DNA of 64,000 nucleotides. Origin: Prolixibacteraceae bacterium (lineage in GTDB: Bacteria; Bacteroidota; Bacteroidia; Bacteroidales; Prolixibacteraceae). Numbering within the stretch: the stretch's first letter is position 1; every line of letters begins with the position of its first letter. Where the stretch lies: positions 69,581 to 133,580 of the forward strand of contig JALNYZ010000009.1 in the NCBI GenBank assembly GCA_023229575.1. Reading direction: 5' to 3'. Shown here in pieces: positions 23,730 to 39,030 of the stretch. A model generated the notes under the pieces. The model searched no databases, was not told where the DNA came from, and saw nothing but the letters and a program-made list of their open reading frames with translations. The translations under genes were made by a program, and so were the position numbers.

Positions 23730-25964
23730 ATGAATACGAAATCATCCCTTATTCTGTTGTTGGCAACTCTTTTTATCTCCTTCGGTTTTAAAGTCGTACC
23801 TGAAGAAAAAAAGCAATTGAGCGATAAAGAGCGGATGAAGCATGAAGCCAGCGCCATTCCCGGAGTTGAGAAGAAAGTCCTTGACCTGCTTTCAAGGATG
23901 ACATTGGAAGAAAAGGCAGGCCAAATGGTACAGGTTACCCCGGCAATTGGAAATAAGGAACAGATTGCCCTGTTTGGTAAGAAAAACGTGGGAAGTGTCT
24001 ATTATTCACCTGAAAACTTCTCGATAAACGATTGGTACGTTTATGAAAAAAATTATATGGAGAGCTACCTTGCCAACAACAGGTTAAAAATACCATTCTT
24101 ATCGCCGCATTGCTTTCAACACGGCGCCACTTACATTAAAGATGCAACGATATTCCCGCATAACCTTACCTTGGCCGCCACTTTTACCCCCGGGTTTGGC
24201 CAGGAGATGGGAAATGTGACAGTATTGGAATGTGGCGACCTGGCGCATAATTTTATCTGGGTGCCGGTCATGGATATTGGCCGCAACCACCGCTGGTCAA
24301 GATTTTTTGAAACTTTTGGCGAATCGTATTATCTCTGTTCACGAATGGGCGAAGCCATTGTAAAGGGGATCCAGGATACTGTTCTAACCTCGCCCTATAA
24401 GGTCGCGGCCTGCGCCAAACATTTTATTGGTTATTCAGATCCCCGGTCCGGCTGGGACAGGTCCCCGGTAATCATCGCGGACCAGGAGCTTTATGAGTAT
24501 TATGTTCCCTCCTTCAAGGCATGTATCGATGCAGGGGTAAAGATCATTGAGGCCAACAGCGGCGAAGTGAATGGCATTCCGGTCCATGCTTCGCACCGGT
24601 TGCTGACAACCTTGCTTCGCGACGAAATGGGGTTTAAAGGCCTGCTAAATTCAGATTACCAGGATATCCGAAAACTGGCAACTTACCACCATGTTGCGGC
24701 AAACGAGAAAGAAGCTGCCTATTTAGGGGTGATGGCCGGTCTTGACCTTGTCCTTACCCCGCACGACCTGCTGTTTGCCGATGATGTGATTGCTTTGGTC
24801 AAAGAGGGAAGGATTTCAGAAGAACGAATTGATTTATCAGTAGCGAGGGTCCTTCGCCTAAAATTTGAACTTGGGTTGTTTGACCATCCTATGCCCCGCG
24901 ACGACCGGTTCGACCGCTTTGCCAGGCCGGAATCAACGCAGAAAGCGTTAAACGCCGCACGCGAAGCAATTGTTTTGTTAAAAAACGAAAACAACCTGCT
25001 CCCATTAAACCTACAAACATCAAAACGGATCCTTGTAACCGGTTTTAATGCCAATAAAAGGATGGCAACCAGTGGTGGCTGGACAGTTGTGACAACCTCC
25101 CCCAAAGCCAAAACGGTTTTTGAAGGGATCACAGAACAATTCCACGACAGCAAAGTTACCCTGGCTGAAAACGATGTCACTAAGATTATAACCGGCGCCA
25201 AAGATGCTGATGCGATCATCTATGTGGCCGGGGAAAATCCCTACAGTGAAGAAAGGGGCAATATCCAGGACGTGAACCTTCCTGATGATCAATTGGAGCA
25301 AATCAATGCAGCAATTTCAACAGGCAAGCCTGTCATACTGATCATGGTTGCCGGAAGGCCACTGATTATTACCAGGGTATTTGACCGCTGCAAGGCCGTA
25401 CTCTGGGCCGGACTTCCCGGGTATGAAGGGGCAAGGGCCATTGCCGAGATTCTAACCGGAACAGTCAATCCTAGCGGGAAACTGCCTTTTGCCTATCCCT
25501 ACACCGATTCGCGCAACTTGACCTACAACCAGAAATACCACGATTTACAACTGACCAAAAACCTGAATGTGCCCTGGACATTTGCCGATTTTGGAAGTGG
25601 GATGGGTTATACCACCTTTTCATACAGTAATATTCAATTGTCAGACACCATCATAAACGGAAAAAACGGTTCATTGAAAGCAACCGTGAAGGTGACCAAT
25701 ACAGGAAAACTTGATGGAAAAGAGGCGGTACTGTGGTTTCTTTGGGACGAAGTGGGCAGTATCACCCGACCCATCAGGGAGTTGAAATATTTCGAAAAGG
25801 AACTGATCAAAAGCGGGGAGGAAAAAACTTTTACTTTTGTGATTGATCCTGAAAGGGATCTGAGCTTTCCCAATGAAAAAGGTGAAAAACTGATTGAAGA
25901 GGGGTATTTTACACTTTCTGTTGGCAACCAAACGGCGAGGTTTCATTTAAAAGAGATAAAATGA
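23730..25964 (+). CDS. GH3 glycoside hydrolase (beta-glucosidase/beta-hexosaminidase type)
   Basis: Motifs KHFIGYS and GFKGLLNSDYQDI (nucleophile region), an alpha/beta C-domain, and a C-terminal FnIII-like domain (VKVTNTGKLDGKEAV). Confidence 0.85.
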   Translation: MNTKSSLILLLATLFISFGFKVVPEEKKQLSDKERMKHEASAIPGVEKKVLDLLSRMTLEEKAGQMVQVTPAIGNKEQIALFGKKNVGSVYYSPENFSINDWYVYEKNYMESYLANNRLKIPFLSPHCFQHGATYIKDATIFPHNLTLAATFTPGFGQEMGNVTVLECGDLAHNFIWVPVMDIGRNHRWSRFFETFGESYYLCSRMGEAIVKGIQDTVLTSPYKVAACAKHFIGYSDPRSGWDRSPVIIADQELYEYYVPSFKACIDAGVKIIEANSGEVNGIPVHASHRLLTTLLRDEMGFKGLLNSDYQDIRKLATYHHVAANEKEAAYLGVMAGLDLVLTPHDLLFADDVIALVKEGRISEERIDLSVARVLRLKFELGLFDHPMPRDDRFDRFARPESTQKALNAAREAIVLLKNENNLLPLNLQTSKRILVTGFNANKRMATSGGWTVVTTSPKAKTVFEGITEQFHDSKVTLAENDVTKIITGAKDADAIIYVAGENPYSEERGNIQDVNLPDDQLEQINAAISTGKPVILIMVAGRPLIITRVFDRCKAVLWAGLPGYEGARAIAEILTGTVNPSGKLPFAYPYTDSRNLTYNQKYHDLQLTKNLNVPWTFADFGSGMGYTTFSYSNIQLSDTIINGKNGSLKATVKVTNTGKLDGKEAVLWFLWDEVGSITRPIRELKYFEKELIKSGEEKTFTFVIDPERDLSFPNEKGEKLIEEGYFTLSVGNQTARFHLKEIK

Positions 25965-27937
25965 AAAAGACTAAAAATCAAGCATGTATGCGATTACTGA
26001 CGGGTATTGCTTTATTGACAGTTCTGTTTTTTGGCGGCGCAAATCTAAGGGCACAAACGACAGGTTCAAGTTGTATCATCGATGTTTCGAAGCCAGGCGT
26101 CCAGGTTGCCCCAATTTGCAGGGGACAACAAATTGAAGAATTCAATTACCAGATTCAGGGAGGCTTGTATGCACAGTTGATCAACAACCCATCTTTTGAG
26201 GAACTGAAAGATCCAATAGCTTATTGGACGTTGGTAAAATCCGCATCATCCAATGGCAATCTGGTAAGCCAGGCTTCGGCTGAAACAAGCATGCTGAACG
26301 GCCATCAGGCACGTTGCGTTAAACTTGAGGTAACTTCAGTGGCTTCGGGAGATGTTGGTATGGCAAACAGTGGCTACTGGGGGATTAGATTAGACAATAA
26401 GACAAAATACAAAATTTCGTTCTGGGCCAAAGCTGGTACAAATTTCAGTGGTACCATAAAAGCTAAACTTGAAAGCAACGATGGTACCGTTTATGCACAA
26501 TCGGCAGACCTTAAACCGACCGTTAACTGGCAGCATTTTACCTGCGACCTGATCACCAAAGGCATTTCAAAGGTTACGGGAACCAACCGGTTTGTCATTT
26601 ATGCCACATCTCCGGGAGATATCTATTTTGATGTTGTCACATTGATGCCTCCTACCTGGAAAAACCGGCCCAACGGGCTCCGGCCTGATTTGGCAAAGAA
26701 GCTGGCAGATTTGAAACTAAAATACATACAATTTCCCGGAGGTTGCACAGCGGAATCAGCCAATATGGATTCGTGCTGGAACTGGAAGAATTCGGTTGGT
26801 CCAATTGAACAACGACCGGGTTCCACCAGAAACAGGTGGAACTATAAAAACGACCTCTATTTTGGGTTGGACGAGCATATGCAGTTGTGTGAAGATTTGG
26901 GGGCGGAACCCATTTATGTGACCTCCGCCGGTATCAGTGAAAATCCCGGATCGAAACGTTGGTGGGGACTTTGTCCGCTAAATAAGATGCAGCCAATCAT
27001 TGACGACATCCTGGATTTGCTTGAGTATTGCAAGGGGTCTACCGCAACGGTATGGGGGGCAAAACGTGCCGCAAATGGCCACCCCAAACCTTATAGTCTT
27101 AAATACATTGAGATAGGCAACGAAAATGGGGGGAATGCCGATACGGTATACTCGCCCCGGTATGCGATGATCCGAAATGCCTTACTTGCCAGGTATCCTG
27201 ATATCGAATTCCTTTACAATGGGCATCGTCAAACCAATGAGCTTTCGCATACGTTTGGAAATCCGGTTGATTTCGTCGATGAACATTTTTATTTAAAAGA
27301 CCTGTCGCCATTCTATAACAAATACGACAGCATCGATCCGGCCTGCAAAAAAATCTGTGTTGCCGAATATGCAACCTCCATCAAAGGAAACGGGGGAAAC
27401 GTAATTGGAAACTTCGGTGACGCGCTTGGGGATGCGGCCTTTATGCTGGGTTGCGAGAAGAATTCGGAGCGGATGTGGTGGACCGGATATGGCAATTATG
27501 CCGGCCTTGTAGGTCATGGTAATTTTGGGCCATGTATCGTTTGGAACGACGCAGTTTCGTGCTTTGCTTCCCCTTCGTATTATATGCAGAAAATGTTGTT
27601 CACGGATAATCCGGGTTCCCGTATTTTGCCTTTTGTTCAAAATACTGAAAACTGTTTCTGGTCTGCTTCAATCGCTTCTGAATCCGGCAAGAATGATATC
27701 CTGCTTAAAGTGGCCAATAAAAACAGCACTTCCAAAACAGTAAATATTACTTTAAAAGGAGCCGGCAAAGTCAATTCTGTTGGTCATTCTACGCTTTTGA
27801 CAGGGGCTTTGGACGCAGAAAATTCAATTTCAGAACCGGTTAAAATTGTACCTTCGACAGGTACGTTTACTGCTGGAAGTAGTTTTACTTATACATTCCC
27901 TGCCAATTCGGTTAATGTTCTCAGGATTGGGCTATGA
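25961..27937 (+). CDS. GH51-type alpha-L-arabinofuranosidase with N-terminal CBM-like domain
   Basis: GGLYAQLINNPSFEE, LKYIQFPGGCTAE, NWKNSVGPIEQRPG, YIEIGNENGG (acid/base) and ICVAEYAT (nucleophile region). Its start overlaps the GH3 stop (ATGA). Confidence 0.75.
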   Translation: MKKTKNQACMRLLTGIALLTVLFFGGANLRAQTTGSSCIIDVSKPGVQVAPICRGQQIEEFNYQIQGGLYAQLINNPSFEELKDPIAYWTLVKSASSNGNLVSQASAETSMLNGHQARCVKLEVTSVASGDVGMANSGYWGIRLDNKTKYKISFWAKAGTNFSGTIKAKLESNDGTVYAQSADLKPTVNWQHFTCDLITKGISKVTGTNRFVIYATSPGDIYFDVVTLMPPTWKNRPNGLRPDLAKKLADLKLKYIQFPGGCTAESANMDSCWNWKNSVGPIEQRPGSTRNRWNYKNDLYFGLDEHMQLCEDLGAEPIYVTSAGISENPGSKRWWGLCPLNKMQPIIDDILDLLEYCKGSTATVWGAKRAANGHPKPYSLKYIEIGNENGGNADTVYSPRYAMIRNALLARYPDIEFLYNGHRQTNELSHTFGNPVDFVDEHFYLKDLSPFYNKYDSIDPACKKICVAEYATSIKGNGGNVIGNFGDALGDAAFMLGCEKNSERMWWTGYGNYAGLVGHGNFGPCIVWNDAVSCFASPSYYMQKMLFTDNPGSRILPFVQNTENCFWSASIASESGKNDILLKVANKNSTSKTVNITLKGAGKVNSVGHSTLLTGALDAENSISEPVKIVPSTGTFTAGSSFTYTFPANSVNVLRIGL

Positions 27938-27973
27938 GCAGTGGTAAAATACTGAAAGCATCCCAAATACAGT

Positions 27974-28022
27974 ATTTTATGCAAATAGAGTGTCATGAAC
28001 TGGAAAAGCAGTAGTATTTTGA
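27974..28022 (+). repeat. 49-nt intergenic direct repeat, copy A
   Basis: ATTTTATGCAAATAGAGTGTCATGAACTGGAAAAGCAGTAGTATTTTGA is identical at 43 of 49 positions, ungapped, to 31321-31369. Confidence 0.8.
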
Positions 28023-28055
28023 TTTTTATTTTTTACATAATCTTGTTACTCACAT

Positions 28056-28871
28056 ATGGAAATAAGATATATTTGTACATATTGGGGCCAGGGGCATTTG
28101 CCGGTAAATGAATTTGTAGCTAAAGCAGTGGAAGCGGGGTACGACGGAATTGAGATTGGTATTCCAATTTATGAAAAATTCACATCTTCAGCATTAAGGG
28201 CTATTGAGAATTCGGGCGTCAGCTTTATCGCACAGCAGTATTTACAACCGGTAATAGAATCGTTTGACCGATACCGTGGTAGGTTGAATGAATATTTAGC
28301 TTTTTTGGCTGCATTAAATCCCATCTTCATCAACTCGCACACAGGAAAGGATTTTTATTCATTTGAAGAAAATGCTATTTTAATCGAGGATTGTTTCCGC
28401 TTTTCCAATCAGACTGGGATTCAGGTCTTTCATGAAACGCATCGTGGTCGGTTCTCTTACCACGCTAGCAACCTTTTGCCCTATATCGACAAATTTGAGA
28501 ACCTCAAACTTACTGCTGATCTATCCCATTTTTGCGTTGTTTCAGAAAGTCTTCTGGAAGATCAGGAAGATATTCTTGATAAAATTTTGGCCCGTTGCAC
28601 ATATATTCATGCCCGGGTAGGTTTTGGTCAGGCCGCACAGGTAAATCATCCATTTGCACCTGAATGGCAGACTACATTGGATCGTTTTGTAGGATGGTGG
28701 CAAAGAATAATTGAATTAGCAAAATCCAAAAGGAGTGGAATATTTTACATTTGTCCTGAATTTGGACCGGCTCCTTATATGCCGACTCTTCCATTTACAC
28801 AACAATCGGTTGCAAATCAATGGGATATTAATATTGAGATGATGAAATACCTTAAGAAGGAATTGAAGTAA
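28056..28871 (+). CDS. Xylose-isomerase-like TIM-barrel protein (sugar phosphate isomerase/epimerase family), cytoplasmic
   Basis: No signal peptide. Motifs AGYDGIEIGIP, FHETHRGR, ADLSHF and IHARVG follow the metal-ligand pattern of this fold. Confidence 0.65.
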   Translation: MEIRYICTYWGQGHLPVNEFVAKAVEAGYDGIEIGIPIYEKFTSSALRAIENSGVSFIAQQYLQPVIESFDRYRGRLNEYLAFLAALNPIFINSHTGKDFYSFEENAILIEDCFRFSNQTGIQVFHETHRGRFSYHASNLLPYIDKFENLKLTADLSHFCVVSESLLEDQEDILDKILARCTYIHARVGFGQAAQVNHPFAPEWQTTLDRFVGWWQRIIELAKSKRSGIFYICPEFGPAPYMPTLPFTQQSVANQWDINIEMMKYLKKELK

Positions 28872-28923
28872 TTTCCATCTGATATTCGGAATTTAAAATT
28901 TAAAATCACAGAAATATTGTAAT

Positions 28924-29700
28924 ATGACAGGCAAGTATAAAGTAACCCCCGAGCAAACAGCGTTTTTCAACGACCAGGGATATCTGCTGGTAAAGGATAT
29001 TATCTCGGCTGAAGAGGTTCTGCGCTACTCCGGGATTTATGATAAGTTTTTGGATGGAACCATTGATGCCGGGAAAAACCGCGCTGATCTTGGTATTGGT
29101 ATGGCAAAATCGGGTCAAGTGGAAGCCATTACGCAAATCATGTGGCCAAGTGATTTTATGCCGGCGCTGTTAGAAATGTCATTTCACCATCGGGTACTTT
29201 CCATTTCCCGTGATTTGCTTGGTAAGGATATGGACTTTGATTTTGATATGCTGATCAGTAAAGCCCCGGGTACAAATAGTCCTACTCCCTGGCACCAGGA
29301 TGCAGCTTATTGGATTAATATGCCAGATACGAGGGCAGTCAGTTGTTGGATGACGTTGGATGATTCCACCAAAGAAAATGGATGTATGTGGTATGTCCCG
29401 GGATCCCACAAACTACCTTTGCGCCCCCATCGATTTGCGGGGAAAGTTGGCGGAGCGCTGATGTGTGATTGTTCGGAAGAAGAGGGTCTGGCCATTGAGA
29501 TTAAGCCGGGTTCATGTATCTTTCATCACGGACATACCCTTCATTATAGTCGTGGCAACTCAACCCCTGGCAACCGAAGGGCTTTTATCATTAACCTCAG
29601 ACCTGAGACGATGATCGCTTTGGAACGTGAAAAGGGATACGACCATGGTCGGGGAGGCAATGCCGCAGACAGGCAACTGCGAAATCAAGAGATAAAATAA
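28924..29700 (+). CDS. Phytanoyl-CoA dioxygenase (PhyH) family Fe(II)/2-oxoglutarate oxygenase
   Basis: FFNDQGYLLVKD N-terminus, WHQDAAYW (HxD of the facial triad), a distal His in HGHTLHYSRGN, then RRAF. Confidence 0.8.
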   Translation: MTGKYKVTPEQTAFFNDQGYLLVKDIISAEEVLRYSGIYDKFLDGTIDAGKNRADLGIGMAKSGQVEAITQIMWPSDFMPALLEMSFHHRVLSISRDLLGKDMDFDFDMLISKAPGTNSPTPWHQDAAYWINMPDTRAVSCWMTLDDSTKENGCMWYVPGSHKLPLRPHRFAGKVGGALMCDCSEEEGLAIEIKPGSCIFHHGHTLHYSRGNSTPGNRRAFIINLRPETMIALEREKGYDHGRGGNAADRQLRNQEIK

Positions 29701-29771
29701 GATCCGTGCAAATCAAGGTTTTACACAAATTAGTTCACATTATAATTTTTACAACTTAATAAAATCAGGTT

Positions 29772-31301
29772 ATGCAAAATAATATTGTTTCAGGAAAAAA
29801 AAGGGGTGAAAGCCAACACATCGCATTGTTAAAAGTTTCAATGCCCCAATTGGCGGTAATAATTTTCTCTCTTTTCATTGCTACACTGGGTAGTACAGCG
29901 AATTCACAAGGCCAACAACTAAATATTGGTGTGGCTACAGCCGACATTACCCCGGTCCTGCCTGTTGCCCTTGATGGCCAGATGTATTTGCGGGTGGCAA
30001 AAGAGGTAGAAACCCCACTTTCGGCCAGCGTTTTGGTAATGGAATCCCGTCAGGGAAGTAAATCAATGGAATCTGTGGTTTTCGTATCCTGTGAATTGGT
30101 GGCGGTTCCTTCAGATTTATTGGCAATGGTTCGCAAAGAGGTGCACCAACGATTGCCAGAATTAGATGTGAATAAGATCGTTATGAATGCCATCCATACA
30201 CATACGGCCCCTGTTGTCAGGTATGGGCTTTATGATATCCCTAAGGAGATTACCCAAATTGAAGCCTATTACACCTTCTTCACAAAGCGTGTTTCAGATG
30301 CCATTGAAGAGGCCTGGAAAAGCAGGGCACCGGGCAGTATAACCTGGGGACTTAGTCAGGCGAAGGTCGGGTACAACCGTCGGGCAACCTATTCTGACAA
30401 CTCTTCAAAGATGTATGGAAAAACCAATCAGGATGATTTTAGGGGGATAGAAGGCTATGAAGACCAAAATGTGAATACCTTGTTTGTTTGGAACCAGGCC
30501 GGCAAACTTACAGCCGTCAGCATTGATGTTGCTTGTCCTGCACAGGAAGTCGAGCATAGGGAAAAAATCAATGCAGATTATTGGTTTCCTGTCAGAAATG
30601 CCTTGCGCAAACAGTTTGGTCCAAAACTTTGTGTGCTGGGTTGGATTGCGGCAGCAGGAGATCAGTCACCACACTTGATGTACGGCCAGGCTGGAGAGGA
30701 GCGAATGCGCAACCTGCGCAAACTGGACCGTTTGGATGAAATAGCGCGCCGCGTAGTAAATGCCGTTGAGGATGCATATGAAGTTGTTAAGTCGGATCGC
30801 CACAAGGAGATAAAATTGGTACATGAGGTCGAAAAAATTTCATTGCCAATGAGGATCGTATCGGATGCAGAATATGAGCAGTGTAAGATTGAGGTGAACA
30901 AAGCGAAGGAGCAAATAGCCAAAGATCCAAAATCATCCGACCAGCTATTCAGAAAGTTAAACTGGGAAGGAGATGTAGTCCGGCGATATGAGGAACAGAA
31001 AACCAATCCGCACCCAATGTATGATACTGAGATACATGTGCTCAGGATTGGGGATGTTGCTGTATGTACCAACTCTTTCGAACTTTTCACAGATTACGGC
31101 ATCGCTATTCAGGCACGGAGCCTGGCAGTGCAGACATTTGTTATTCAACATGTAGGCCCGGGAACCTATCTTCCAACAGAAAAAGCTGTTAAGGGCGGTA
31201 GTTACAGTGCGATCATAGAGAGTAACCTGGTAGGACCGGAGGGTGGGCAGATTTTGGTTGACCGCACAGTAAAATTGATTAATGGCATGTTTGCGCAATA
31301 A
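29772..31301 (+). CDS. Neutral/alkaline-ceramidase-like N-terminal-domain protein, paralogue 2
   Basis: Collinear with paralogue 1 over the full length, and more than half the positions look identical by eye. Shared blocks: IGVATADITP, NAIHTHTAPV, CPAQEVE, DYWFPVR, AAAGDQSPHLMY, HVLRIGDVAVCT, YLPTEKAVKGGSYSAI. An alternative start lies at 29841. Confidence 0.6.
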   Translation: MQNNIVSGKKRGESQHIALLKVSMPQLAVIIFSLFIATLGSTANSQGQQLNIGVATADITPVLPVALDGQMYLRVAKEVETPLSASVLVMESRQGSKSMESVVFVSCELVAVPSDLLAMVRKEVHQRLPELDVNKIVMNAIHTHTAPVVRYGLYDIPKEITQIEAYYTFFTKRVSDAIEEAWKSRAPGSITWGLSQAKVGYNRRATYSDNSSKMYGKTNQDDFRGIEGYEDQNVNTLFVWNQAGKLTAVSIDVACPAQEVEHREKINADYWFPVRNALRKQFGPKLCVLGWIAAAGDQSPHLMYGQAGEERMRNLRKLDRLDEIARRVVNAVEDAYEVVKSDRHKEIKLVHEVEKISLPMRIVSDAEYEQCKIEVNKAKEQIAKDPKSSDQLFRKLNWEGDVVRRYEEQKTNPHPMYDTEIHVLRIGDVAVCTNSFELFTDYGIAIQARSLAVQTFVIQHVGPGTYLPTEKAVKGGSYSAIIESNLVGPEGGQILVDRTVKLINGMFAQ

Positions 31302-31320
31302 TATATTGCATTAGAGTCCA

Positions 31321-31369
31321 ATTTTGTGCAAATAGAGTGTCATTAATTGAAAATGCAGTAGTTTTTTGA
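31321..31369 (+). repeat. 49-nt intergenic direct repeat, copy B
   Basis: ATTTTGTGCAAATAGAGTGTCATTAATTGAAAATGCAGTAGTTTTTTGA is identical at 43 of 49 positions to 27974-28022. Confidence 0.8.
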
Positions 31370-31547
31370 GAAACTACAGGCCATAACTTTGTTAATTCTT
31401 GTTAAAAAATGCAATGATCAGTTTTATATAGCCCTCTGATCACATGGGTTTGTAATTTAGACTGAATATTTGAACTTTTCCGGGAGTAATTTCTGAGAAA
31501 TAGTTAGCTTTATACTTTAGGGAACTAACTATCTTAACAAACGTCCT

Positions 31548-32156
31548 ATGAAGAAGCAGGATAACAACGACTATCATGCTATTTGGGAATCGTTTATAAC
31601 AAACGGCAATCATGAAGCCATAGGAATGATCTATTTTGGTCATTACGACTTGCTGTATAATTTTGGTTTGAAGTATACAAAAGATGTTCAGGTCATTGAA
31701 GATGCAATTCAAAATACCTTCGGTTATTTTCTTAAAACTGGCCGCAAACTAAGCCCCGTCACCAATTTACGCTCGTTTCTCCTTCAATCATTTCGCCATC
31801 GGTTGCTTCTCGAACTTAAACGCAGAAGCAGAATTTTTCACATGCATGCGATTGAAGCTAAAAACGTTGGTTCACACGAGCCGGAAGTCAATGAAAAAAT
31901 AGAACAGGAATGGAGCAGCTGGCTAGGGAAAAAAATTTCCAAATGCATGGAACGTCTTACCGGGAAGCAGAAGGAGATACTCTATCTGCGTTTCCAATGT
32001 GACCTTTCCTATGCTGAGATTGCATCCATGCTGGATATCACGGTCGATTCGTGCTACAAGATGACCTATCGTTCCCTCAAAGAGCTTCGGGAGGATATAG
32101 AAGAATTGGAATCCATCGGGCATCGCTTGATTATGTTTTTCATGATAAAATCCTGA
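31548..32156 (+). CDS. ECF-type RNA polymerase sigma-70 factor
   Basis: 202 aa. Region 4 HTH LTGKQKEILYLRFQCDLSYAEIASMLDITVDSCYKMTYRSLKELR. It lies upstream of a FecR/SusC(STN) set. Confidence 0.8.
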   Translation: MKKQDNNDYHAIWESFITNGNHEAIGMIYFGHYDLLYNFGLKYTKDVQVIEDAIQNTFGYFLKTGRKLSPVTNLRSFLLQSFRHRLLLELKRRSRIFHMHAIEAKNVGSHEPEVNEKIEQEWSSWLGKKISKCMERLTGKQKEILYLRFQCDLSYAEIASMLDITVDSCYKMTYRSLKELREDIEELESIGHRLIMFFMIKS

Positions 32157-32215
32157 AAGTTATTCTCATTTATTGATAGGCCCTCCTGTCGGCCGGCATA
32201 TAAATATTGCATTTT

Positions 32216-32257
32216 CAAAAAAAAACACTTTTTTTCAAAAAAAGGTGTTTTTTTTTG
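32216..32257. terminator. Long A/T hairpin, bidirectional terminator-like
   Basis: CAAAAAAAAACACTTTTTTT-C-AAAAAAAGGTGTTTTTTTTTG forms a stem of about 20 bp with one bulge and has T-runs on both strands. It starts 60 nt after the sigma stop. Confidence 0.45.
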
Positions 32258-32414
32258 TCCAGATTTCATTTTTGCCTGACTCTTATACTAAACTAAGCTT
32301 ATCAGATACAAAACACATCCCGGTAAACCGGAACGAATGAGAAAACAATCAGCCATAAGCGGATCGGCTATACCGATCTAAACTATTTGATCTTAAAATT
32401 CAAAATTTTAAAAA

Positions 32415-33578
32415 ATGAACCTTAATCGTTTCAACTCATATAGTGCAGAGGATTTTGTTATCGATGAAATATTCTGTGAGATTGTTGGTGGGGGTACACC
32501 TGCCGTTCAAAATCTAAAAGAACAGTTTCCATTTAAGAAACATGAGATTGATTTAGCTGTAGAGATGCTTAACAAACTGCAGAGTTTGGAATTTCAACAA
32601 TCTCCTGAAAAAAAACTTGAGCAGTGGGACCAAATTCTTAAAAATAAGCGAAAATCCATCAGGTTCACGATTTTCAGGATTGCGGCCGCTGTGCTTTTGA
32701 TTATCGGAAGTACCGCCATCGCCTATTATCAACTGTCGAGACACTCCATTATCAACCAATTAGCCTCCACAAAGGAGGTTAATTATGCAAATGCAAGGTT
32801 GATCTTGGTTGACGGAGAGCAAATCGACATTGGCCAAAACCGGCCAAATATTAAATATTCAGCCGATGGGGCCGGTGTTTTAGTCAATGATTCAACCGAA
32901 AAGCGGCAATCGGTCAATACGGATGGGTTTAATCAGGTCATCGTTCCCTTTGGTCAACATACCTATTTAATCCTGTCTGACGGAACAAAGGTTTGGATCA
33001 ACTCGGGATCACGCCTTGTTTATTCCCCGGTTTTTAAAGGGAAAAGCAGGGAAGTTTTTTTGGAAGGGGAGGCCTATTTTGAAGTTACGAAAGACGAAAA
33101 TAAACCTTTTTATGTTGGAACGAATGCATTCCGTGTAAAAGTATACGGAACGAAGTTCGATGTACAGGCTTACAAACAAAACAATGAATACAATACCATT
33201 TTGATGGAGGGAAAAGTAAGTCTTGAAGCAAACAAGGGTGGGATAATGGCGAAGGAACAATTTCTTTACCCGGATCAAAAGGCCACGCTATCAGATAATA
33301 AGAAAGATTTTCTTGTTTCTGAAGTCGCCAATATTGAAAACTATACCGCCTGGAAAGATGGATACCTGCTCTTTAAAAATGAGGCTTTTCAATCCATCTT
33401 AAAACGGGTATCCCACTATTACAATGTTGATATTGAACTTAATGATGAGATTCAGGTTAGACGGTTGTCCGGAAAACTTGACTTAAAAGAGGACCCGGAA
33501 AGGGTACTGGAAGGTTTGGCCTTAATTTCGAAAATCCGTTTTGTAAAAACCAATAATAAATATCGTTTTTATGAGTAA
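32415..33578 (+). CDS. FecR-family anti-sigma factor
   Basis: Single TM (IFRIAAAVLLIIGSTAIAYY) and a FecR/DUF4974-type periplasmic part (EGEAYFEV, V.VYGTKFDVQAY). Confidence 0.85.
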   Translation: MNLNRFNSYSAEDFVIDEIFCEIVGGGTPAVQNLKEQFPFKKHEIDLAVEMLNKLQSLEFQQSPEKKLEQWDQILKNKRKSIRFTIFRIAAAVLLIIGSTAIAYYQLSRHSIINQLASTKEVNYANARLILVDGEQIDIGQNRPNIKYSADGAGVLVNDSTEKRQSVNTDGFNQVIVPFGQHTYLILSDGTKVWINSGSRLVYSPVFKGKSREVFLEGEAYFEVTKDENKPFYVGTNAFRVKVYGTKFDVQAYKQNNEYNTILMEGKVSLEANKGGIMAKEQFLYPDQKATLSDNKKDFLVSEVANIENYTAWKDGYLLFKNEAFQSILKRVSHYYNVDIELNDEIQVRRLSGKLDLKEDPERVLEGLALISKIRFVKTNNKYRFYE

Positions 33579-33596
33579 CTAACCGTTTTGTAGATG

Positions 33597-33669
33597 AAAA
33601 AACCGGTTAATGGTCGAAACATTAACCGGCTAAAGTAAATCATGCCGCTAGGCAACATGTTTAATTAAT
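33597..33669 (-). ncRNA. Candidate cis-antisense sRNA (DonS-like) opposite the susC 5' leader, locus 2
   Basis: 10-bp hairpin CCGGTTAATG/CATTAACCGG (33603-33629), followed by TTTTTT on the minus strand only. The minus-strand box TACTTTTG (33683->33676) overlaps the susC ATG in the same register as at 16421-16428. Confidence 0.35.
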
Positions 33670-33682
33670 TCAATTCAAAAGT

Positions 33683-36600
33683 ATGAAAAAAGATCCAAAT
33701 GATTGCTCTTTCCTCTTGGGAAAGAGGTTAAAGATTAATTGGCTAGCTATGAAATTGTTAACGATTTTGCTCTTTACCGGTTCGATGACATTGTCGGCCA
33801 GTTCCTATTCCCAGAAGACAAAAATTGACTTGCACCTGCAAAACTCTTCATTGTCAGAAATATTTAGTTTGATTGAAAAATCGAGCGACTTTATTTTTTT
33901 CTACAATGATGAGATTTTAAATGATAAAGTCAGAAAATCGGTTTCTGTGGATGGAGAGAAGATCGAGGTAATTCTTGAGCAGTTGTTTGAGGGAACAAAT
34001 ATTGCCTACAAGATTGATGACAGGCAGGTTTTCCTATACAACAAGGATGATTTAAAATCACTTGAAACCCTCGTTTCCATTTCCTTAGTTCAACAACCTA
34101 AGAATAAGGAGGTTTCAGGAACTGTGCACGACTCAAAGGGACAACCATTGCCCGGGGCCACCATCCTGATCAAAGGGACAACCTTGGGTATTGTTACCGA
34201 TATTGATGGAAAATTCAGGTTTAATGTTCCGCTCGATGCGAAAACACTGGTAATTTCCTTTGTCGGTATGAAGTCACAGGAAATCGCGATTGCAGCGAAA
34301 AGAACTTTCGATGTTGTGCTGGCAGAGGAGACAGTTGGATTGGAAGAGGTAGTGGCTGTGGGGTACAGCATTCAAAAGAAGGAGTCTGTTGTAGGCGCCA
34401 TCTCACAAGTAAATAATGCTGCATTGATGCAGTCAGGATCCCCCAATATTACCAGTTCCTTGTCGGGTAAGCTTTCTGGTGTTTTGACCATACAGCAAAC
34501 CGGCTTACCCGGACAAAGTCAATCTGAAATTATTATCCGGGGTTTGTCCAGTTGGAGTGGTTCAGCGCCATTGATCCTGATTGACGGTGTCGAACGTGAT
34601 TTTCAGGATATGGATCCCAATGAAGTCAATACGATTTCGGTGTTGAAGGATGCGTCTGCCACTGCAGTATTCGGATCCAAAGGCGCCAATGGGGTTATTC
34701 TTGTAACCACCAAACGTGGGAAATTGGGCAAGCCTCAAATTACTTTTACAGGTTCTGCAGGGGTTGAGTCAGCCACAAGATTGCCCTCCTTTGTTGATTC
34801 ATACACCACCTTGTCAATGATGAATGTTGCCAGGATGAATTCTCAGAGGTTCAAAGAACTGACCCCGCAAAATATCCTCAATGAATACCGTAATCCTTCC
34901 TCCCCGTTAAAAGCAATTCAATATCCGAGTGTCGATTGGATCGGTATGCTTACCAAACCATTTGCCCCATCGGCCAATTCCAACCTTAGTGTTACCGGTG
35001 GTACAGAGTTTGTAAAATATTTTTTGATGCTTGGGGACCAGTATGAAGGCAGTTTATTAAAATATGCAAAAAGTGGATATTCTGATGCCAATTATTGGTT
35101 TCACCGGTTTAATTACCGGGCCAATCTGGATTTCACCCTCTCCAAAACAACTCAGTTGTCGCTCAACATAGGAGGCGAAGTAGGGATTAGAAACCAGCCA
35201 ACCGAAGCCTTTTATGGTGACTGGAAAGACTTCTATGGTGCAGCGGTAAGCGATTTCCCCGCAAATTATCCCGATTGGGTATTGAAACAGATTCCGGATA
35301 CCGACTATCCCAATGCCACTGGTTTAAGGAGAGCGGCCACTACCGGAAGCTTCATTCTGAATCCATGGAGCAACGTAAACACAGGTTCTTTCTCACGATC
35401 TTTGGATTCTAAGTTGTTTACCGACCTTGTTTTGGACCAAAAACTCGACTTTATTACGAAAGGGTTATCATTGAAAGGTAAAGTCGCGCTAAATACTTAC
35501 TACAATCACCAGATATTGTATGCCAATTACACCAACCCAGCCTATCGGATCATCTGGTCCAGGGTAGGAGTGGACGCGAATGGCGATGGAATTGTTGATC
35601 AAAACCCCTGGGAACGGGATGGACAGGGCCAGGAATATTATACCCCGCCCAAACTGGATATGAATGTAGGAGGATTGACCGGTAGTTATTACTACGATCG
35701 TTATTTCGAGGGCTCCTTAAATTACAGCAATACTTTCGGGAAACATTCTGTTACAGGATTGGCGCTGATCAATTTTCAGGAAAAAGACCGTGGAACAGAA
35801 TTCCCCTACTACAATGAAGCGCTCGTTGGCAGGGCAACTTACGATTATTCACATAAATATTTTGCTGAGATTAACATCGGATATACCGGCTCTGAAAGGT
35901 TTGCACCAAGTAACCGATTCGGGTTCTTTCCTTCAGGCGCCATCGGATGGACCATCTCAGAGGAGAAATTCTTTAAAAATAACGTAGCCTGGATGAACAA
36001 GCTGAAGTTGCGCTACTCCGACGGAGTGGTTGGTAGTGATTACGCCGCTAGCCGATGGCTTTACAAGAGCGATTTCTATTTAGACTATGCAGGAATTGTC
36101 ACTGAAGACAAAGGTGCAAATACTTCTGCCCAGTGGGAAGAGGCAAGGAAAAGGGACCTGGGGATCGAAATAGGTATTTTCAAGAACCGTTTCACATTCA
36201 GTGTGGATTTGTTCGACGAACAGCGTTCTAAAATGCTGATGACGCCGTTGAGTACAACCTTCCTGATTGGCAATTCATTTAAAGACCTGAACATTGGCCG
36301 TATAAAAAAACATGGAATAGAAGTTGAGGCTGAGTACAATAATACGACGGCCAACAATATCAACTATTTTATTAAGGGAAACTTTTCGTTCAATGAAAAC
36401 CGCATTTTATTCAGGGACGATCCGGTTTATGCCCCCGACTATACCAAGGCTGCGGGTAAACCCTTGGGCGCCCAATTAAATGGGGAGACACTGACCGGTA
36501 CCGGATATTTTACCTCAGTGGATGACGTACACATCAATCCTTCCCCAATCGCATTGGAGAAACTTTATGTAGGCGATTATAAATTTTTGGATTACAATGC

Positions 36601-37153
36601 TGATGGGATTGTCAGTAGTGCAGACGGTCATGCCATCAAAGGTCAGGCTTATGCACCGATTACCTATTCTTTCTCAACCGGGTTTAGTTACAAAGGATTT
36701 AATTTAAGTATCATGTTCCAGGGGAACTATGGTAAGAACATACAAATGAGCCCGGTTAGTGAGATGGAATTTTATACCGGTCAACCCCGGGTGCACATGT
36801 CACAAATGGATTATTGGAGACCCGACAACCAGGATGCAACCCATTCTACATTGCGTATCAGCGCTTCCGAGGCGGGCGATATCATTTATACATGGGGGCC
36901 GCTTTTGCAGGACCGGTTGTGGAGGAATGCCTCTTACCTGCGGTTAAAGGAGATTTATGCCGGCTACAATATCAATTCAGGTTTGATCAAGCGATTGACA
37001 GGCATATCAGGGATGCTTGTCTATGCCAATGCCACCAATGTGCTGACATTTACCAAGTTGCTCAAAGAGTGGGACCCTGAAGTCAAAAGTATAGGCACGG
37101 GATGGTATCCCCAGTTAAGCCGTTACAATCTTGGTGTGAAGTTTACTTTCTAA
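33683..37153 (+). CDS. SusC/RagA-family TonB-dependent transporter with STN domain
   Basis: 1156 aa. STN (SYSQKTKIDLHLQNSSLSEIFSLIEKSSDFIFFY), CarboxypepD_reg (VSGTVHDSKGQPLPGATILIKGTTLG), a plug (ISVLKDASATAVFGSKGANGVILVTTKRG), and an ending in ...NLGVKFTF. Confidence 0.95.
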   Translation: MKKDPNDCSFLLGKRLKINWLAMKLLTILLFTGSMTLSASSYSQKTKIDLHLQNSSLSEIFSLIEKSSDFIFFYNDEILNDKVRKSVSVDGEKIEVILEQLFEGTNIAYKIDDRQVFLYNKDDLKSLETLVSISLVQQPKNKEVSGTVHDSKGQPLPGATILIKGTTLGIVTDIDGKFRFNVPLDAKTLVISFVGMKSQEIAIAAKRTFDVVLAEETVGLEEVVAVGYSIQKKESVVGAISQVNNAALMQSGSPNITSSLSGKLSGVLTIQQTGLPGQSQSEIIIRGLSSWSGSAPLILIDGVERDFQDMDPNEVNTISVLKDASATAVFGSKGANGVILVTTKRGKLGKPQITFTGSAGVESATRLPSFVDSYTTLSMMNVARMNSQRFKELTPQNILNEYRNPSSPLKAIQYPSVDWIGMLTKPFAPSANSNLSVTGGTEFVKYFLMLGDQYEGSLLKYAKSGYSDANYWFHRFNYRANLDFTLSKTTQLSLNIGGEVGIRNQPTEAFYGDWKDFYGAAVSDFPANYPDWVLKQIPDTDYPNATGLRRAATTGSFILNPWSNVNTGSFSRSLDSKLFTDLVLDQKLDFITKGLSLKGKVALNTYYNHQILYANYTNPAYRIIWSRVGVDANGDGIVDQNPWERDGQGQEYYTPPKLDMNVGGLTGSYYYDRYFEGSLNYSNTFGKHSVTGLALINFQEKDRGTEFPYYNEALVGRATYDYSHKYFAEINIGYTGSERFAPSNRFGFFPSGAIGWTISEEKFFKNNVAWMNKLKLRYSDGVVGSDYAASRWLYKSDFYLDYAGIVTEDKGANTSAQWEEARKRDLGIEIGIFKNRFTFSVDLFDEQRSKMLMTPLSTTFLIGNSFKDLNIGRIKKHGIEVEAEYNNTTANNINYFIKGNFSFNENRILFRDDPVYAPDYTKAAGKPLGAQLNGETLTGTGYFTSVDDVHINPSPIALEKLYVGDYKFLDYNADGIVSSADGHAIKGQAYAPITYSFSTGFSYKGFNLSIMFQGNYGKNIQMSPVSEMEFYTGQPRVHMSQMDYWRPDNQDATHSTLRISASEAGDIIYTWGPLLQDRLWRNASYLRLKEIYAGYNINSGLIKRLTGISGMLVYANATNVLTFTKLLKEWDPEVKSIGTGWYPQLSRYNLGVKFTF

Positions 37154-37173
37154 ATTTCTAAAATTCGACAACC

Positions 37174-39030
37174 ATGAAAAAATCAATCATATTATTATGT
37201 ACAGGGCTTTTTTTAATATTCATCAGCTCGTGCAAAGATTACCTGGATAAGTCCCCCGAATCCACCTTCACCGAGGAAGATGTATTTTCGAACTACAGTA
37301 CCTTTAAAACTTATTTTGACGGGCTATACAAGGGGAAAACAGGGCGCAATACGACCGCGACCAATTACTCAAACAACACCAATATTTTTGTCAATTTCAG
37401 CTTGTACTTTGGAGGTATTCCCAGGCATTTCAGTCAGGAACAGATGACCGATATGAGTGATGCCGGTTGGATCAGGGAAAATGCATCCATCAAAGGGGGG
37501 AGTTTAGGGACCAATATCAGCCTTTTTTATGATGACGGTTTCCAGCGCCCCATTTTTAAAACCTCGTTCCATACGCTAAGGATTGCCAACATGGCCTTGG
37601 AGAAAGTACATCTGCTGAAAGATGTCAAACAGGAAGAGATTGATGATATTCTGGCACAATCGCATTTCTGCAGGGCATTTTCCCATTTTGCCCTGTTCCG
37701 TTACTGGGGACCCATGCCTTACATTACTAAGGTAATAGGGCCCGATGACCAATGGGACATTCCACGTCTGTCGAAATACGAAACATGCCGTAAAATTTGC
37801 GCCGATTTGGATACAGCCGCTACCATTTTTGAAAAAATTCACCTGATGCGAAGGGATGTTGCAGGGGTTGGCGAAGTAGGGCACCTTAGCAGTCCGGATC
37901 AGTTTCGTCCGAGCGGGGCATTGTGTAAAGCGCTGAAAGGACGCGTATTGTTGTATGCCGCCAGTCCATTGAACAATAAAAATGGCGTGAAAGACTGGGA
38001 AGATGCGGCCAAAGCCAATTGGGAAGCAATACAAATTGCCCTACAAAACGGTTATTTTCTGTTACCCAAGAAAGATTATCAATTAAATTGGGTTGGATCA
38101 AATTATACGGACGAATCGCTTTGGTCATGGACTCCGGGCTTATTGAAACATGACGATCAAATGCTTACTTTCCTGAGCAATGGCGTTTTCTCAGCTTCAG
38201 CAAATGTTGCAGGGGATAGTCCTACTCAAAATTGTGTAGATAAATTTGAAACCGCATGGGGCGACCCGCTCGATACACAGGCAGACAGGGATGCTGCTAC
38301 CGCGCTTGGCCATTACAAGGAACAGGATCCATACAAGAACAGGGAGCCCCGTTTCTATATCGATATCATGTACAACGAAGCGCCGATTCCGGGTTATGTA
38401 ACGGCCAAGATCTATACGCAGACCGTAAATGGTGTGATTACCTATTCGGAACTTCTGGATCAAAAATATCCGGGTATTACCTCTACAGGTTATTATGAGC
38501 GAAAACTTTGGGGTGGGCAAAGTGTGAAGAATAACATTGCGGTCATGCATTCTGACCCATTCATACGCTTGGCAGAACTTTATCTGAATTATGCCGAAGC
38601 TGCGAACGAAGCGTACGGGCCCAATACGCCTGCCCCTGGCGCTACCCTTACAGCGGTTCAGGCCATTAACCTTGTAAGGCAAAGGATTGGACACGTTGAT
38701 GTTCAGTCCAGGTTTACTACAAGCACAGAGGTTTTCAGGCCGAGGATCAAAAACGAACGTACCATTGAGTTGGCCTTCGAAGGGCACTACTATTTCGACG
38801 AAAGAAGATGGATGGATGCCCCGGTCGCAATGGGTGGCCCGCTGATGGGCATGGCTATCGAAAAAGTACCGGTCAGTTCGACCTATCCGATCGGTTACAA
38901 ACACACGCGTGTACCTTTAAATGCAACCCGTCAGAGCACGTGGAAACCTGAAATGTATTATTTGCCTTTCAGACAAGCCGATTATTTTAAGATGAAAAAA
39001 TTCGATGCCACACTAAACCCACGTTGGTAA
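37174..39030 (+). CDS. SusD/RagB-family lipoprotein
   Basis: Lipobox IFISSC followed by KDYLDKSPES. C-terminal motifs LAELYLNYAEAANEAYG and IKNERTIELAFEGHYYFDERRW. Confidence 0.9.
   Translation: MKKSIILLCTGLFLIFISSCKDYLDKSPESTFTEEDVFSNYSTFKTYFDGLYKGKTGRNTTATNYSNNTNIFVNFSLYFGGIPRHFSQEQMTDMSDAGWIRENASIKGGSLGTNISLFYDDGFQRPIFKTSFHTLRIANMALEKVHLLKDVKQEEIDDILAQSHFCRAFSHFALFRYWGPMPYITKVIGPDDQWDIPRLSKYETCRKICADLDTAATIFEKIHLMRRDVAGVGEVGHLSSPDQFRPSGALCKALKGRVLLYAASPLNNKNGVKDWEDAAKANWEAIQIALQNGYFLLPKKDYQLNWVGSNYTDESLWSWTPGLLKHDDQMLTFLSNGVFSASANVAGDSPTQNCVDKFETAWGDPLDTQADRDAATALGHYKEQDPYKNREPRFYIDIMYNEAPIPGYVTAKIYTQTVNGVITYSELLDQKYPGITSTGYYERKLWGGQSVKNNIAVMHSDPFIRLAELYLNYAEAANEAYGPNTPAPGATLTAVQAINLVRQRIGHVDVQSRFTTSTEVFRPRIKNERTIELAFEGHYYFDERRWMDAPVAMGGPLMGMAIEKVPVSSTYPIGYKHTRVPLNATRQSTWKPEMYYLPFRQADYFKMKKFDATLNPRW

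What the first reader, a model, noticed from the sequence alone, without database searches (positions are those of the whole stretch)
27974..31369. 49-nt direct repeats (43/49 identical) bracket a three-gene TIM-barrel / PhyH dioxygenase / ceramidase-like cassette
ATTTTATGCAAATAGAGTGTCATGAACTGGAAAAGCAGTAGTATTTTGA (27974-28022) and ATTTTGTGCAAATAGAGTGTCATTAATTGAAAATGCAGTAGTTTTTTGA (31321-31369) align without gaps.

They lie in the two intergenic regions immediately flanking genes 28056-31301. The last of those genes is a paralogue of the ceramidase-like gene 6 kb upstream.

I see three possible explanations:
- scars of a duplication or insertion that delivered the cassette between two PULs
- a shared cis-regulatory site placing the cassette and the downstream ECF sigma gene (31548) under one regulator
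- a small conserved RNA element

I noticed no third copy in the window.
Basis: seen in the sequence. Interest (0 to 1): 0.6.

Follow-up and report, generated by a model that had tools for sequence, protein, structure and literature searches.

The report
AraC-type operator-promoter module, five genomic copies
The two 49-base repeats are not insertion scars but two of five copies of a promoter-plus-operator module that most likely puts the three-gene cassette, the neighbouring ECF-sigma glycan locus and three other operons under one AraC-family sugar regulator; this is an ordinary kind of regulon, here with an uncharacterised regulator.

Summary
The repeats are real: 27974-28022 and 31321-31369, 43/49 identical. 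They are not a pair. The genome holds five copies, each in an intergenic gap and reading toward the gene downstream. The conserved core is 41 nt (TGCAAATnGAGTGTCATnAnTTGRAAAAGCAGTAGTTTTTT). Its profile matches itself best at a 21-bp shift (TGnAAAnnnAGT twice). Its T-rich 3' end lies where a Bacteroidota -33 element would be. A -7 box (TAnnTTTG) follows 16-17 nt later in 26 of 30 sites across 18 genomes.

Among 301 genomes of the family, the motif occurs in exactly the 18 that carry an orthologue of one AraC-family regulator (G000 C85:25968-26846). It occurs in none of the other 283. In 16 of the 18, one copy lies 45-48 nt upstream of that regulator's start codon, divergently oriented.

I found no RNA structure, no Rfam match and no mobile-element features. 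The three ECF sigma genes downstream are only 22-26% identical to each other.

Best reading: an AraC-type activator operator fused to a sigma-A promoter. The scar and RNA hypotheses are not. This is a new member of a known kind. All evidence is comparative; no binding or transcript data were available.

The parts
27980..28020 (+). Distal half-site 27980-27996 TGCAAATAGAGTGTCAT. Proximal half-site 28001-28017 TGGAAAAGCAGTAGTAT. TTTG at 28018-28021 is the candidate -33 element. Predicted span is -70 to -30.
28038..28045 (+). Candidate -7 box TAATCTTG (one mismatch to TAnnTTTG), 17 nt after the operator. Predicted transcription start is near 28050, about 6 nt before the ATG at 28056.
   Evidence: the -12..-5 position of the box comes from PMC9723704
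28056..31301 (+). Operon 1, the 'cassette': TIM-barrel (28056-28871), PhyH-family dioxygenase (28924-29700) and ceramidase-like hydrolase (29772-31301).
31327..31367 (+). Distal half-site 31327-31343. Proximal half-site 31348-31364. TTTG at 31365-31368 is the candidate -33 element.
31384..31391 (+). Perfect -7 box TAACTTTG, 16 nt after the operator. Predicted transcription start is near 31396, giving a leader of about 150 nt before the ECF sigma ATG.
31548..39030 (+). Operon 2: ECF sigma (31548-32156), FecR-type anti-sigma (32415-33578), SusC with STN domain (33683-37153) and SusD (37174-39030).

Best explanation
Each 49-nt repeat is a regulated promoter. It consists of a 41-nt operator for a cytoplasmic AraC/XylS-family regulator (293 aa, encoded elsewhere in the genome at C85:25968-26846) joined to a Bacteroidota sigma-A promoter.

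Shown:
- There are five co-oriented intergenic copies in this genome.
- Conservation starts sharply at TGCAAAT and ends in the T-run. A variable 16-17-nt spacer and then a TAnnTTTG -7 box follow.
- The motif and the regulator orthologue occur in exactly the same 18 of 301 genomes.
- In 16 of those genomes a copy lies 45-48 nt from the regulator's start codon.

Inferred:
- A regulator dimer binds two roughly 17-bp half-sites (core TGnAAAnnnAGT) that repeat directly with a 21-bp period, at about -70 to -30.
- The proximal half-site abuts the -33 element, so the ligand-bound regulator recruits RNA polymerase, as class-II AraC-type activators do.
- In this genome the regulon has grown to five operons. 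These are the TIM-barrel/PhyH/ceramidase-like cassette; the ECF-sigma/anti-sigma/SusCD locus; two MFS-transporter catabolic operons; and an esterase/oxidoreductase operon.
- The two window copies simply start two adjacent operons of that regulon.
- At the regulator-adjacent copies, the distal half-site read on the other strand is itself a -7 box (TATATTTG). This predicts that the regulator controls its own promoter.
- The inducing ligand is unknown. It is presumably a sugar or amino-sugar released from the target glycan.
For: Copy number and orientation:
- An nhmmer profile finds 5 hits at E<=0.004 and the next at E=3.5.
- A pattern search gives 5 hits in G000 and 0 for the reversed control.
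- All copies lie 35-180 nt upstream of a co-directional ATG.

Promoter geometry:
- A -7 box sits at offset 16-17 in 26 of 30 sites from 18 genomes. The other four have one-mismatch boxes at the same offset.
- The -33/-7 consensus and the -12..-5 position are taken from PMC7366714 and PMC9723704.

Regulator link:
- Orthologues (67-94% identity) occur in 18 of 301 family genomes.
- The motif pattern hits exactly those 18 and none of the other 283. The control pattern hits 2 of 301. Fisher p=2.6e-29; genomes are related, so this is overstated.
- Within the genus, using a pattern derived from G000 alone, the split is 4/4 against 0/21.
- The 45-48 nt adjacency is seen in 16 of 18 genomes.

Regulator identity:
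- It has HTH_18/HTH_AraC domains and a weak full-length RhaS-like match.
- The closest solved DNA-binding domain is from a Bacteroides hybrid two-component system.

Operator geometry:
- Profile self-similarity peaks at a 21-bp shift, 6.3 against 2.8 for the next best.
- Ravcheev 2013 reports the same geometry for AraC-type domains in Bacteroides: direct repeats about 21 bp apart, for example two 12-bp sites with a 9-bp spacer.

Regulon content recurs in other genera:
- Ceramidase-like genes follow the motif in G092, G118 and G150.
- An ECF sigma/FecR pair follows it in G118.
Against: - There is no experimental evidence: no binding data and no mapped start sites.
- The 21-bp internal repeat is only borderline against column shuffles (p about 0.06).
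- The half-sites share only about 9 of 17 positions.
- A -33 TTTG is literal only in c1, c2 and a few others. The rest show a T-run.
- The family-wide pattern was refined on sites found next to orthologues. Presence in those genomes is therefore partly by construction. Absence from the other 283 is not.
- Activation rather than repression is inferred from position alone.
- Copy c2 lies about 150 nt from the sigma ATG. A second, closer promoter is possible.
- In G092 the regulator-adjacent site is degenerate, with altered spacing.
Confidence: 0.8

Rival explanations
1. The motif is an operator or upstream promoter element for a different factor that merely travels with the AraC gene. Candidates are another transcription factor encoded in the conserved MFS operon, or a nucleoid protein. 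The AraC-family protein would then not be the binder.
For: Co-occurrence and adjacency cannot separate the AraC gene from other genes of the same conserved locus. The internal 21-bp repeat is only borderline.
Against: The adjacent operon (MFS, isomerase-like, PfkB kinase, aminotransferase, SGNH hydrolase) contains no other DNA-binding protein. The divergent regulator-target arrangement with an operator in the shared gap is the standard signature of a local regulator. The site geometry matches AraC-type domains.
Confidence: 0.08
2. The motif is an ECF-sigma-dependent promoter. It would be recognised by the sigma factors encoded downstream (31548, C146:16256, C89:51982) and would be autoregulatory.
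For: Three of the five G000 copies have an ECF sigma gene somewhere downstream on the same strand. In G118 one copy also directly precedes an ECF sigma.
Against: - The three sigma factors are only 22-26% identical to each other, or show no detectable similarity. A shared promoter specificity is therefore unlikely.
- Most of the 30 sites precede MFS transporters with no sigma gene.
- A sigma-A type -7 box lies at a fixed distance downstream of the motif. This model leaves that unexplained.
- The conserved block has no CGT-type -10 element (PMC9723704).
- The G024 orthologue of the window's sigma lacks the motif, although G024 has the motif elsewhere.
Confidence: 0.05
3. The repeats are scars of a duplication, insertion or small mobile element that delivered the three-gene cassette between two glycan loci.
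For: The cassette was not found at DNA level in the three congeneric genomes that carry the regulon. The TIM-barrel/PhyH pair occurs in other contexts elsewhere. c1 and c2 are marginally the most similar pair (43/49).
Against: - Five copies exist, and the other three flank nothing comparable.
- Similarity stops at the module's edges.
- I saw no terminal inverted repeats or transposase.
- Every copy is oriented toward a downstream gene and is followed by a -7 box.
- TIM/PhyH homologues at 75-77% identity in other genomes lack the motif.
Confidence: 0.03
4. The element is transcribed and acts as a small RNA or structured 5' leader.
For: It is conserved, directional and upstream of genes. A weak A-U hairpin can be drawn across GAAAAGCAGTAGTTTTT.
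Against: - Fold energies are no better than shuffles on either strand (z +0.3 to +1.4).
- The consensus structure is -1.95 kcal/mol with essentially no covariation.
- Rfam gives no match near the element.
- The element lies upstream of the predicted -7 box, so it is probably not transcribed.
Confidence: 0.03

Closest known systems
AraC at araI1-araI2 of E. coli araBAD, and class-II AraC/XylS activators generally (from established knowledge, not tested here)
   Same: Two half-sites of about 17 bp in direct repeat, 21 bp centre to centre. The proximal one abuts or overlaps the upstream promoter element. The regulator gene is divergent from its main target. The regulator's own promoter overlaps an operator, so autoregulation is expected.
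   Different: The promoter is of the Bacteroidota sigma-A type (-33/-7) rather than -35/-10. The half-site sequence is unrelated. No distal looping site was identified. The ligand is unknown. The regulator reaches only 76 bits against the RhaS model, whose cutoff is 288, so it is not an orthologue of any named regulator.
Predicted operators of AraC-type hybrid two-component systems and RhaR in Bacteroides (Ravcheev et al. 2013, PMC3878776)
   Same: Bacteroidota. AraC-type DNA-binding domain; the closest solved domain is from an HTCS. Direct repeats about 21 bp apart upstream of glycan-utilisation operons. Inferred by the same comparative-genomics logic.
   Different: This regulator is a 293-aa soluble one-component protein with no sensor kinase or receiver domains. 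The family is Prolixibacteraceae-like rather than Bacteroides. One target here is an ECF sigma/anti-sigma pair.
ECF-sigma/anti-sigma/SusC(STN) trans-envelope signalling loci of Bacteroides
   Same: Operon 2 of the window has that architecture exactly.
   Different: The repeat is not the ECF-dependent promoter. It sits in front of the sigma gene itself. This implies a cytoplasmic regulator acting above the surface-signalling cascade.

Membership tests
AraC/XylS-family operator (class-II activator site) | The cognate regulator carries the C-terminal double helix-turn-helix AraC-type domain | tested here: met
   HTH_18 at 2.7e-20 and HTH_AraC at 2.6e-12 over residues 206-284. RhaS, AraC and others match in NCBIfam, all below cutoff. 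PDB hits are AraC-type domains.
AraC/XylS-family operator (class-II activator site) | Regulator gene and site co-occur across genomes and are physically linked | tested here: met
   The motif and the orthologue are in the same 18 of 301 genomes, and in none of the 283 without an orthologue. The gap to the regulator ATG is 45-48 nt in 16 genomes.
AraC/XylS-family operator (class-II activator site) | Two half-sites of about 17 bp, repeated with a spacing of about two helical turns | tested here: inconclusive
   Profile self-similarity is clearly best at a 21-bp shift (6.3 against 2.8 or less). However, 6% of column shuffles reach that value at some shift.
AraC/XylS-family operator (class-II activator site) | The proximal half-site abuts or overlaps the upstream promoter element | tested here: met
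   The motif ends 16-17 nt before the -7 box in 30 of 30 sites, which places its 3' T-run/TTTG at about -33. Start sites are predicted, not mapped.
AraC/XylS-family operator (class-II activator site) | Specific protein-DNA binding and ligand-dependent activation | not testable with these tools
   This needs EMSA or footprinting and reporter assays.
Bacteroidota sigma-A (sigma-ABfr) promoter | TAnnTTTG box at -12..-5 | tested here: met
   26 of 30 sites match TAnnTT[TC][GA] at a fixed offset, and 4 have one mismatch. The consensus comes from PMC7366714 and PMC9723704.
Bacteroidota sigma-A (sigma-ABfr) promoter | Transcription start mapped about 5 nt after the box | not testable with these tools
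ECF-sigma-dependent promoter | Conserved -35/-10 pair with a CGT-type -10 inside the conserved block, and a cognate sigma gene downstream | tested here: not met
   The logo has no CGT-type element. Only 2 of 30 sites directly precede a sigma gene. The downstream sigmas are 22-26% identical.
Mobile-element or duplication scar (direct repeats flanking inserted DNA) | Copies pair up around inserted segments; homology or inverted repeats at the ends; orientation independent of neighbouring genes | tested here: not met
   There are five dispersed copies. All are co-oriented with the downstream gene and all are followed by a -7 box. Homology does not extend beyond the module.
Structured cis-regulatory RNA or small RNA | A stable, conserved secondary structure with covariation, or an Rfam family match | tested here: not met

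The most novel reading that the evidence does not exclude
A soluble AraC-family sugar sensor sits above an ECF-sigma/anti-sigma/SusC surface-signalling locus and co-regulates it with cytoplasmic catabolic operons. Across several genera its regulon repeatedly includes the unstudied ceramidase-fold hydrolases found in glycan loci. The regulon would then define a pathway for an as yet unidentified amide- or amine-bearing glycan. It would also show regulon growth by spread of a complete operator-promoter module.
Probability: 0.4. Interest if true: 0.45.

Novelty: new member of a known kind. Interest (0 to 1): 0.3.

Why it matters
This replaces a 'cassette flanked by repeats' reading with a concrete, testable regulon. 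The regulon comprises one uncharacterised AraC-family regulator, a defined 41-nt operator, and five operons in this genome.

The regulon links several genes of unknown role to one transporter/isomerase/kinase/aminotransferase pathway: the TIM-barrel/PhyH pair, the ceramidase-fold hydrolases, and an ECF-sigma PUL. That gives a handle on their substrate.

It is also a clean example of a cytoplasmic one-component regulator placed upstream of a trans-envelope ECF signalling system in Bacteroidota. The mechanism itself is of a textbook kind.

Tried and rejected
- Sigma-54 promoter on the minus strand. TGACAC-N5-TTGCA is visible in the reverse complement. The GG and GC dinucleotides are not conserved among copies, and the direction would be antisense to the upstream genes. 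I rejected it by inspection.
- Rho-independent terminator reading of GCAGTAGTTTTTT. There is only a 3-bp stem and no stable fold.
- Rfam scan of 27700-31800 at E<=10. It returned only chance hits, none on the element.
- Empty-site search. The cassette and its flanks (25961-33600) were searched in G011, G013 and G024. No syntenic junction was found. G024 has the sigma/anti-sigma orthologues in another context without the motif.
- Homologues of the PhyH gene in 56 public loci. None carries the motif.
- A loose half-site pattern at 1 mismatch was too noisy, because the controls also hit. It did reveal variant TGCAAAT repeats next to paralogous AraC genes.
- Direct-repeat search upstream of the six AraC paralogues in G000. 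It gave different, unconvincing repeats.
- Earlier-findings look-up by sequence found nothing.
- The generic sigma-70 promoter scan is uninformative for this phylum. No + strand terminator was found between 31301 and 31548.
Full report
**Observation.** The two 49-mers are in the window exactly as quoted: 27974-28022 and 31321-31369, + strand, 43/49 identical, no gaps. They lie in the gaps on either side of ORFs 28056-28871, 28924-29700 and 29772-31301.
- Pfam gives these three a weak xylose-isomerase-like TIM barrel, a solid PhyH dioxygenase domain and a weak N-terminal neutral-ceramidase domain.
- The next genes are an ECF sigma factor (31548-32156), a FecR anti-sigma factor, a SusC with an STN domain, and a SusD.
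- The shared 17-mer occurs twice in the window, against 0.29 expected at up to 3 mismatches.

**Not a pair.** The window is C138:69581-133580 of a 5.44-Mb, 158-contig assembly.
- BLAST, an nhmmer profile and an IUPAC pattern all find five copies. Two are in the window. The others are at C146:11430 (+), C85:26895 (+) and C89:55830 (-).
- The sixth-best nhmmer hit is at E=3.5, and the reversed control pattern gives zero hits.
- All five are intergenic, and each reads in the same direction as the gene that starts 35-180 nt downstream.
- Pairwise identity over the 49 nt is 43 for c1-c2, 40 for c1-c3 and c2-c4, and 39 for c1-c4. The two window copies therefore have no special relationship. Similarity does not extend beyond the module.

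**Anatomy.** I aligned 11 and then 30 sites.
- Conservation starts abruptly at (A)TGCAAAT and ends in a T-run, which gives a 41-nt core: TGCAAATnGAGTGTCATnAnTTGRAAAAGCAGT(A/C)GTTTTTT.
- The next 16-17 nt are unconserved. A TAnnTTTG-like box follows: TAATCTTG at 28038-28045 and TAACTTTG at 31384-31391.
- Across 30 sites from 18 genomes, 26 have TAnnTT[TC][GA] at offset 16-17. The other four have one mismatch at that same offset.
- TAnnTTTG at -12..-5, with TTTG near -33, is the consensus of the primary sigma factor of Bacteroidota (PMC7366714; PMC9723704).
- The core then spans about -70 to -30. Its 3' T-run (TTTG in c1 and c2) falls at the -33 position. Predicted start sites are near 28050 and 31396.
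- Within the core, the profile's self-similarity is clearly greatest at a 21-bp shift (6.3 against 2.8 or less for any other shift between 5 and 30). This reflects TGnAAAnnnAGT occurring twice. Against column shuffles it is borderline (6% reach it).

**The regulator.**
- Copy c4 lies 48 nt upstream of, and divergent from, a 293-aa gene (C85:25968-26846). That gene has HTH_18/HTH_AraC domains, a weak full-length RhaS-like match and AraC-type domains as its PDB relatives. The best of these is from a Bacteroides hybrid two-component system.
- Within the genus (25 genomes), a pattern derived from G000 alone hits G000, G011, G013 and G024 only. Orthologues of the regulator (74-100% identity) exist in exactly those four genomes. 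The best hit in the other 21 is 41% or less.
- Within the family (301 genomes sampled, 36 genera), orthologues (67-94% identity, E<1e-130) occur in 18 genomes from 9 genera. A motif pattern at up to 1 mismatch hits exactly the same 18 and none of the other 283. The reversed control hits 2 of 301. Fisher p=2.6e-29. This overstates the case because the genomes are related.
- The family-wide pattern was refined on sites seen next to orthologues. Only its absence from the 283 genomes is an unbiased result.
- In 16 of the 18 genomes, one site lies 45-48 nt from the regulator's ATG (coordinates).
- The two exceptions are G286, where the locus is broken at a contig end, and G092, where the adjacent site is degenerate with altered spacing.
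- At regulator-adjacent sites the distal half-site is usually TGCAAATATAGT. Its reverse complement contains TATATTTG, a perfect -7 box that points at the regulator gene. This holds for 14 of 17 adjacent sites and 2 of 13 non-adjacent sites (p=6e-4). It predicts autoregulation.

**Regulon.** Most genomes have only the regulator-adjacent site, in front of a FucP/GluP-like MFS transporter or a sugar porter. G000 has the most sites (5), followed by G118 (4), then G013 and G150 (3 each), then G024 (2). In G000 the five operons are:
- c1: TIM-barrel, PhyH dioxygenase, ceramidase-like hydrolase.
- c2: ECF sigma, FecR, SusC(STN), SusD.
- c3: MFS transporter, M20 deacylase, an unassigned 346-aa protein, a DHDPS/NanA-like lyase. 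An ECF sigma gene lies 184 nt further on.
- c4: MFS transporter, fucose/sulfoquinovose-isomerase-like protein, PfkB kinase, class-III aminotransferase, SGNH hydrolase.
- c5: AXE1/S9-like hydrolase, GFO/IDH/MocA oxidoreductase. An ECF sigma/FecR pair lies 316 nt further on.

In other genera the motif directly precedes ceramidase-like genes 34-37% identical to the window's (G092, G118, G150). In G118 it precedes an ECF sigma/FecR pair 47% identical to that of c5. These gene types are therefore recurrent regulon members.

Membership is plastic:
- G024 has orthologues of the window's sigma/anti-sigma genes (74% DNA identity) behind an ordinary TAATTTTG promoter, without the operator.
- The cassette was not found at DNA level in G011, G013 or G024.
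- TIM-barrel/PhyH pairs at 75-77% identity in Prolixibacteraceae and Mariniphaga MAGs lack both the motif and the ceramidase-like gene.

**Mechanism.**
- Shown: copy number, orientation, fixed distance to a -7 box, and co-occurrence and adjacency with the AraC-family gene.
- Inferred: a regulator dimer binds two direct-repeat half-sites two helical turns apart. The proximal half-site touches the -33 element, and the regulator activates sigma-A transcription when it binds an unknown sugar-derived ligand.
- This geometry is the one predicted for AraC-type domains in Bacteroides: direct repeats about 21 bp apart, including 'two 12-bp sites separated by a 9-bp spacer' (PMC3878776). From textbook knowledge, it is also the geometry of AraC at araI1-I2.
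- The two window copies are the starts of two neighbouring operons. No + strand terminator separates 31301 from 31548, so read-through may add to the second.

**Rivals.**
- ECF-sigma promoter. The three downstream sigmas are only 22-26% identical. Most sites have no sigma gene downstream. The downstream -7 box would be unexplained.
- Insertion scar or mobile element. I found no pairing of copies, no terminal repeats, and no homology beyond the module.
- RNA element. Fold z-scores are +0.3 to +1.4 on both strands. The consensus structure is -1.95 kcal/mol with no real covariation. Rfam gives no hit.
- A different binding protein that travels with the locus. Sequence alone cannot exclude this, but the conserved locus encodes no other DNA-binding protein.

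**Limits.**
- All evidence is comparative.
- The assembly is a draft with 8.4% estimated contamination. However, the congeneric G013 carries counterparts of c3, c4 and c5, so those contigs belong to the same lineage.

**Verdict.** It is a regulated promoter module of an AraC-family regulon, which makes it a new member of a well-known kind. Its interest is modest. The value lies in the regulon map it provides for several unassigned glycan-locus enzymes, and in an AraC-type regulator placed above an ECF-sigma PUL.

Noticed in passing
L191 (G092:C7), L202 (G118:C342), L196 (G150:C357); window 29772-31301: In three other genera the same operator sits directly in front of ceramidase-like genes that are 34-37% identical to the window's paralogues. 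These unstudied hydrolases are therefore recurrent members of this AraC-type regulon, alongside a FucP/GluP-like transporter and an isomerase/kinase/aminotransferase operon. This hints at an aminated or N-acylated sugar substrate.
   Followed up: partly
G000 C85:26847-26935 and the equivalent gaps in 16 genomes (e.g. L130, L131, L168-L171): At regulator-adjacent copies, the distal half-site TGCAAATATAGT reads on the opposite strand as a perfect -7 box (TATATTTG) about 45 nt upstream of the regulator's ATG. This holds for 14 of 17 adjacent sites and 2 of 13 non-adjacent sites. The operator and the regulator's own promoter overlap, which predicts autoregulation.
   Followed up: partly
G009:C16:89197-89229, G015:C115:7641-7673, G019:C47:36280-36312, G011:C608:5080-5112: Paralogous AraC-family genes (33-39% identical) have variant direct repeats about 45-50 nt from their own start codons, for example TGTAAATATAGT-N9-TGCAAATCTAAT. 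This suggests a wider subfamily that uses TGCAAAT-type half-sites with a 21-bp period.
   Followed up: no
window 33601-33631 (- strand): A 12-bp terminator-like hairpin with a T-tail lies on the minus strand in the gap between the anti-sigma gene (ends 33578) and susC (starts 33683).
   Followed up: no
L042 6094-7762, L044 6155-7756: The TIM-barrel and PhyH genes travel as a conserved two-gene pair in other Prolixibacteraceae-like genomes (75-77% identity). There they have different neighbours, no ceramidase-like gene and no operator.
   Followed up: partly
L161 (G024:C1:579147-582756): G024 has orthologues of the window's ECF sigma/anti-sigma pair behind a short gap with a plain TAATTTTG promoter and no operator. 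Placement of this sigma under the AraC-type regulator is therefore specific to the window's genome among those examined.
   Followed up: yes
window 28050-28056: The predicted start site of operon 1 leaves only about 6 nt of leader before the ATG of the TIM-barrel gene. The transcript would be nearly leaderless.
   Followed up: no
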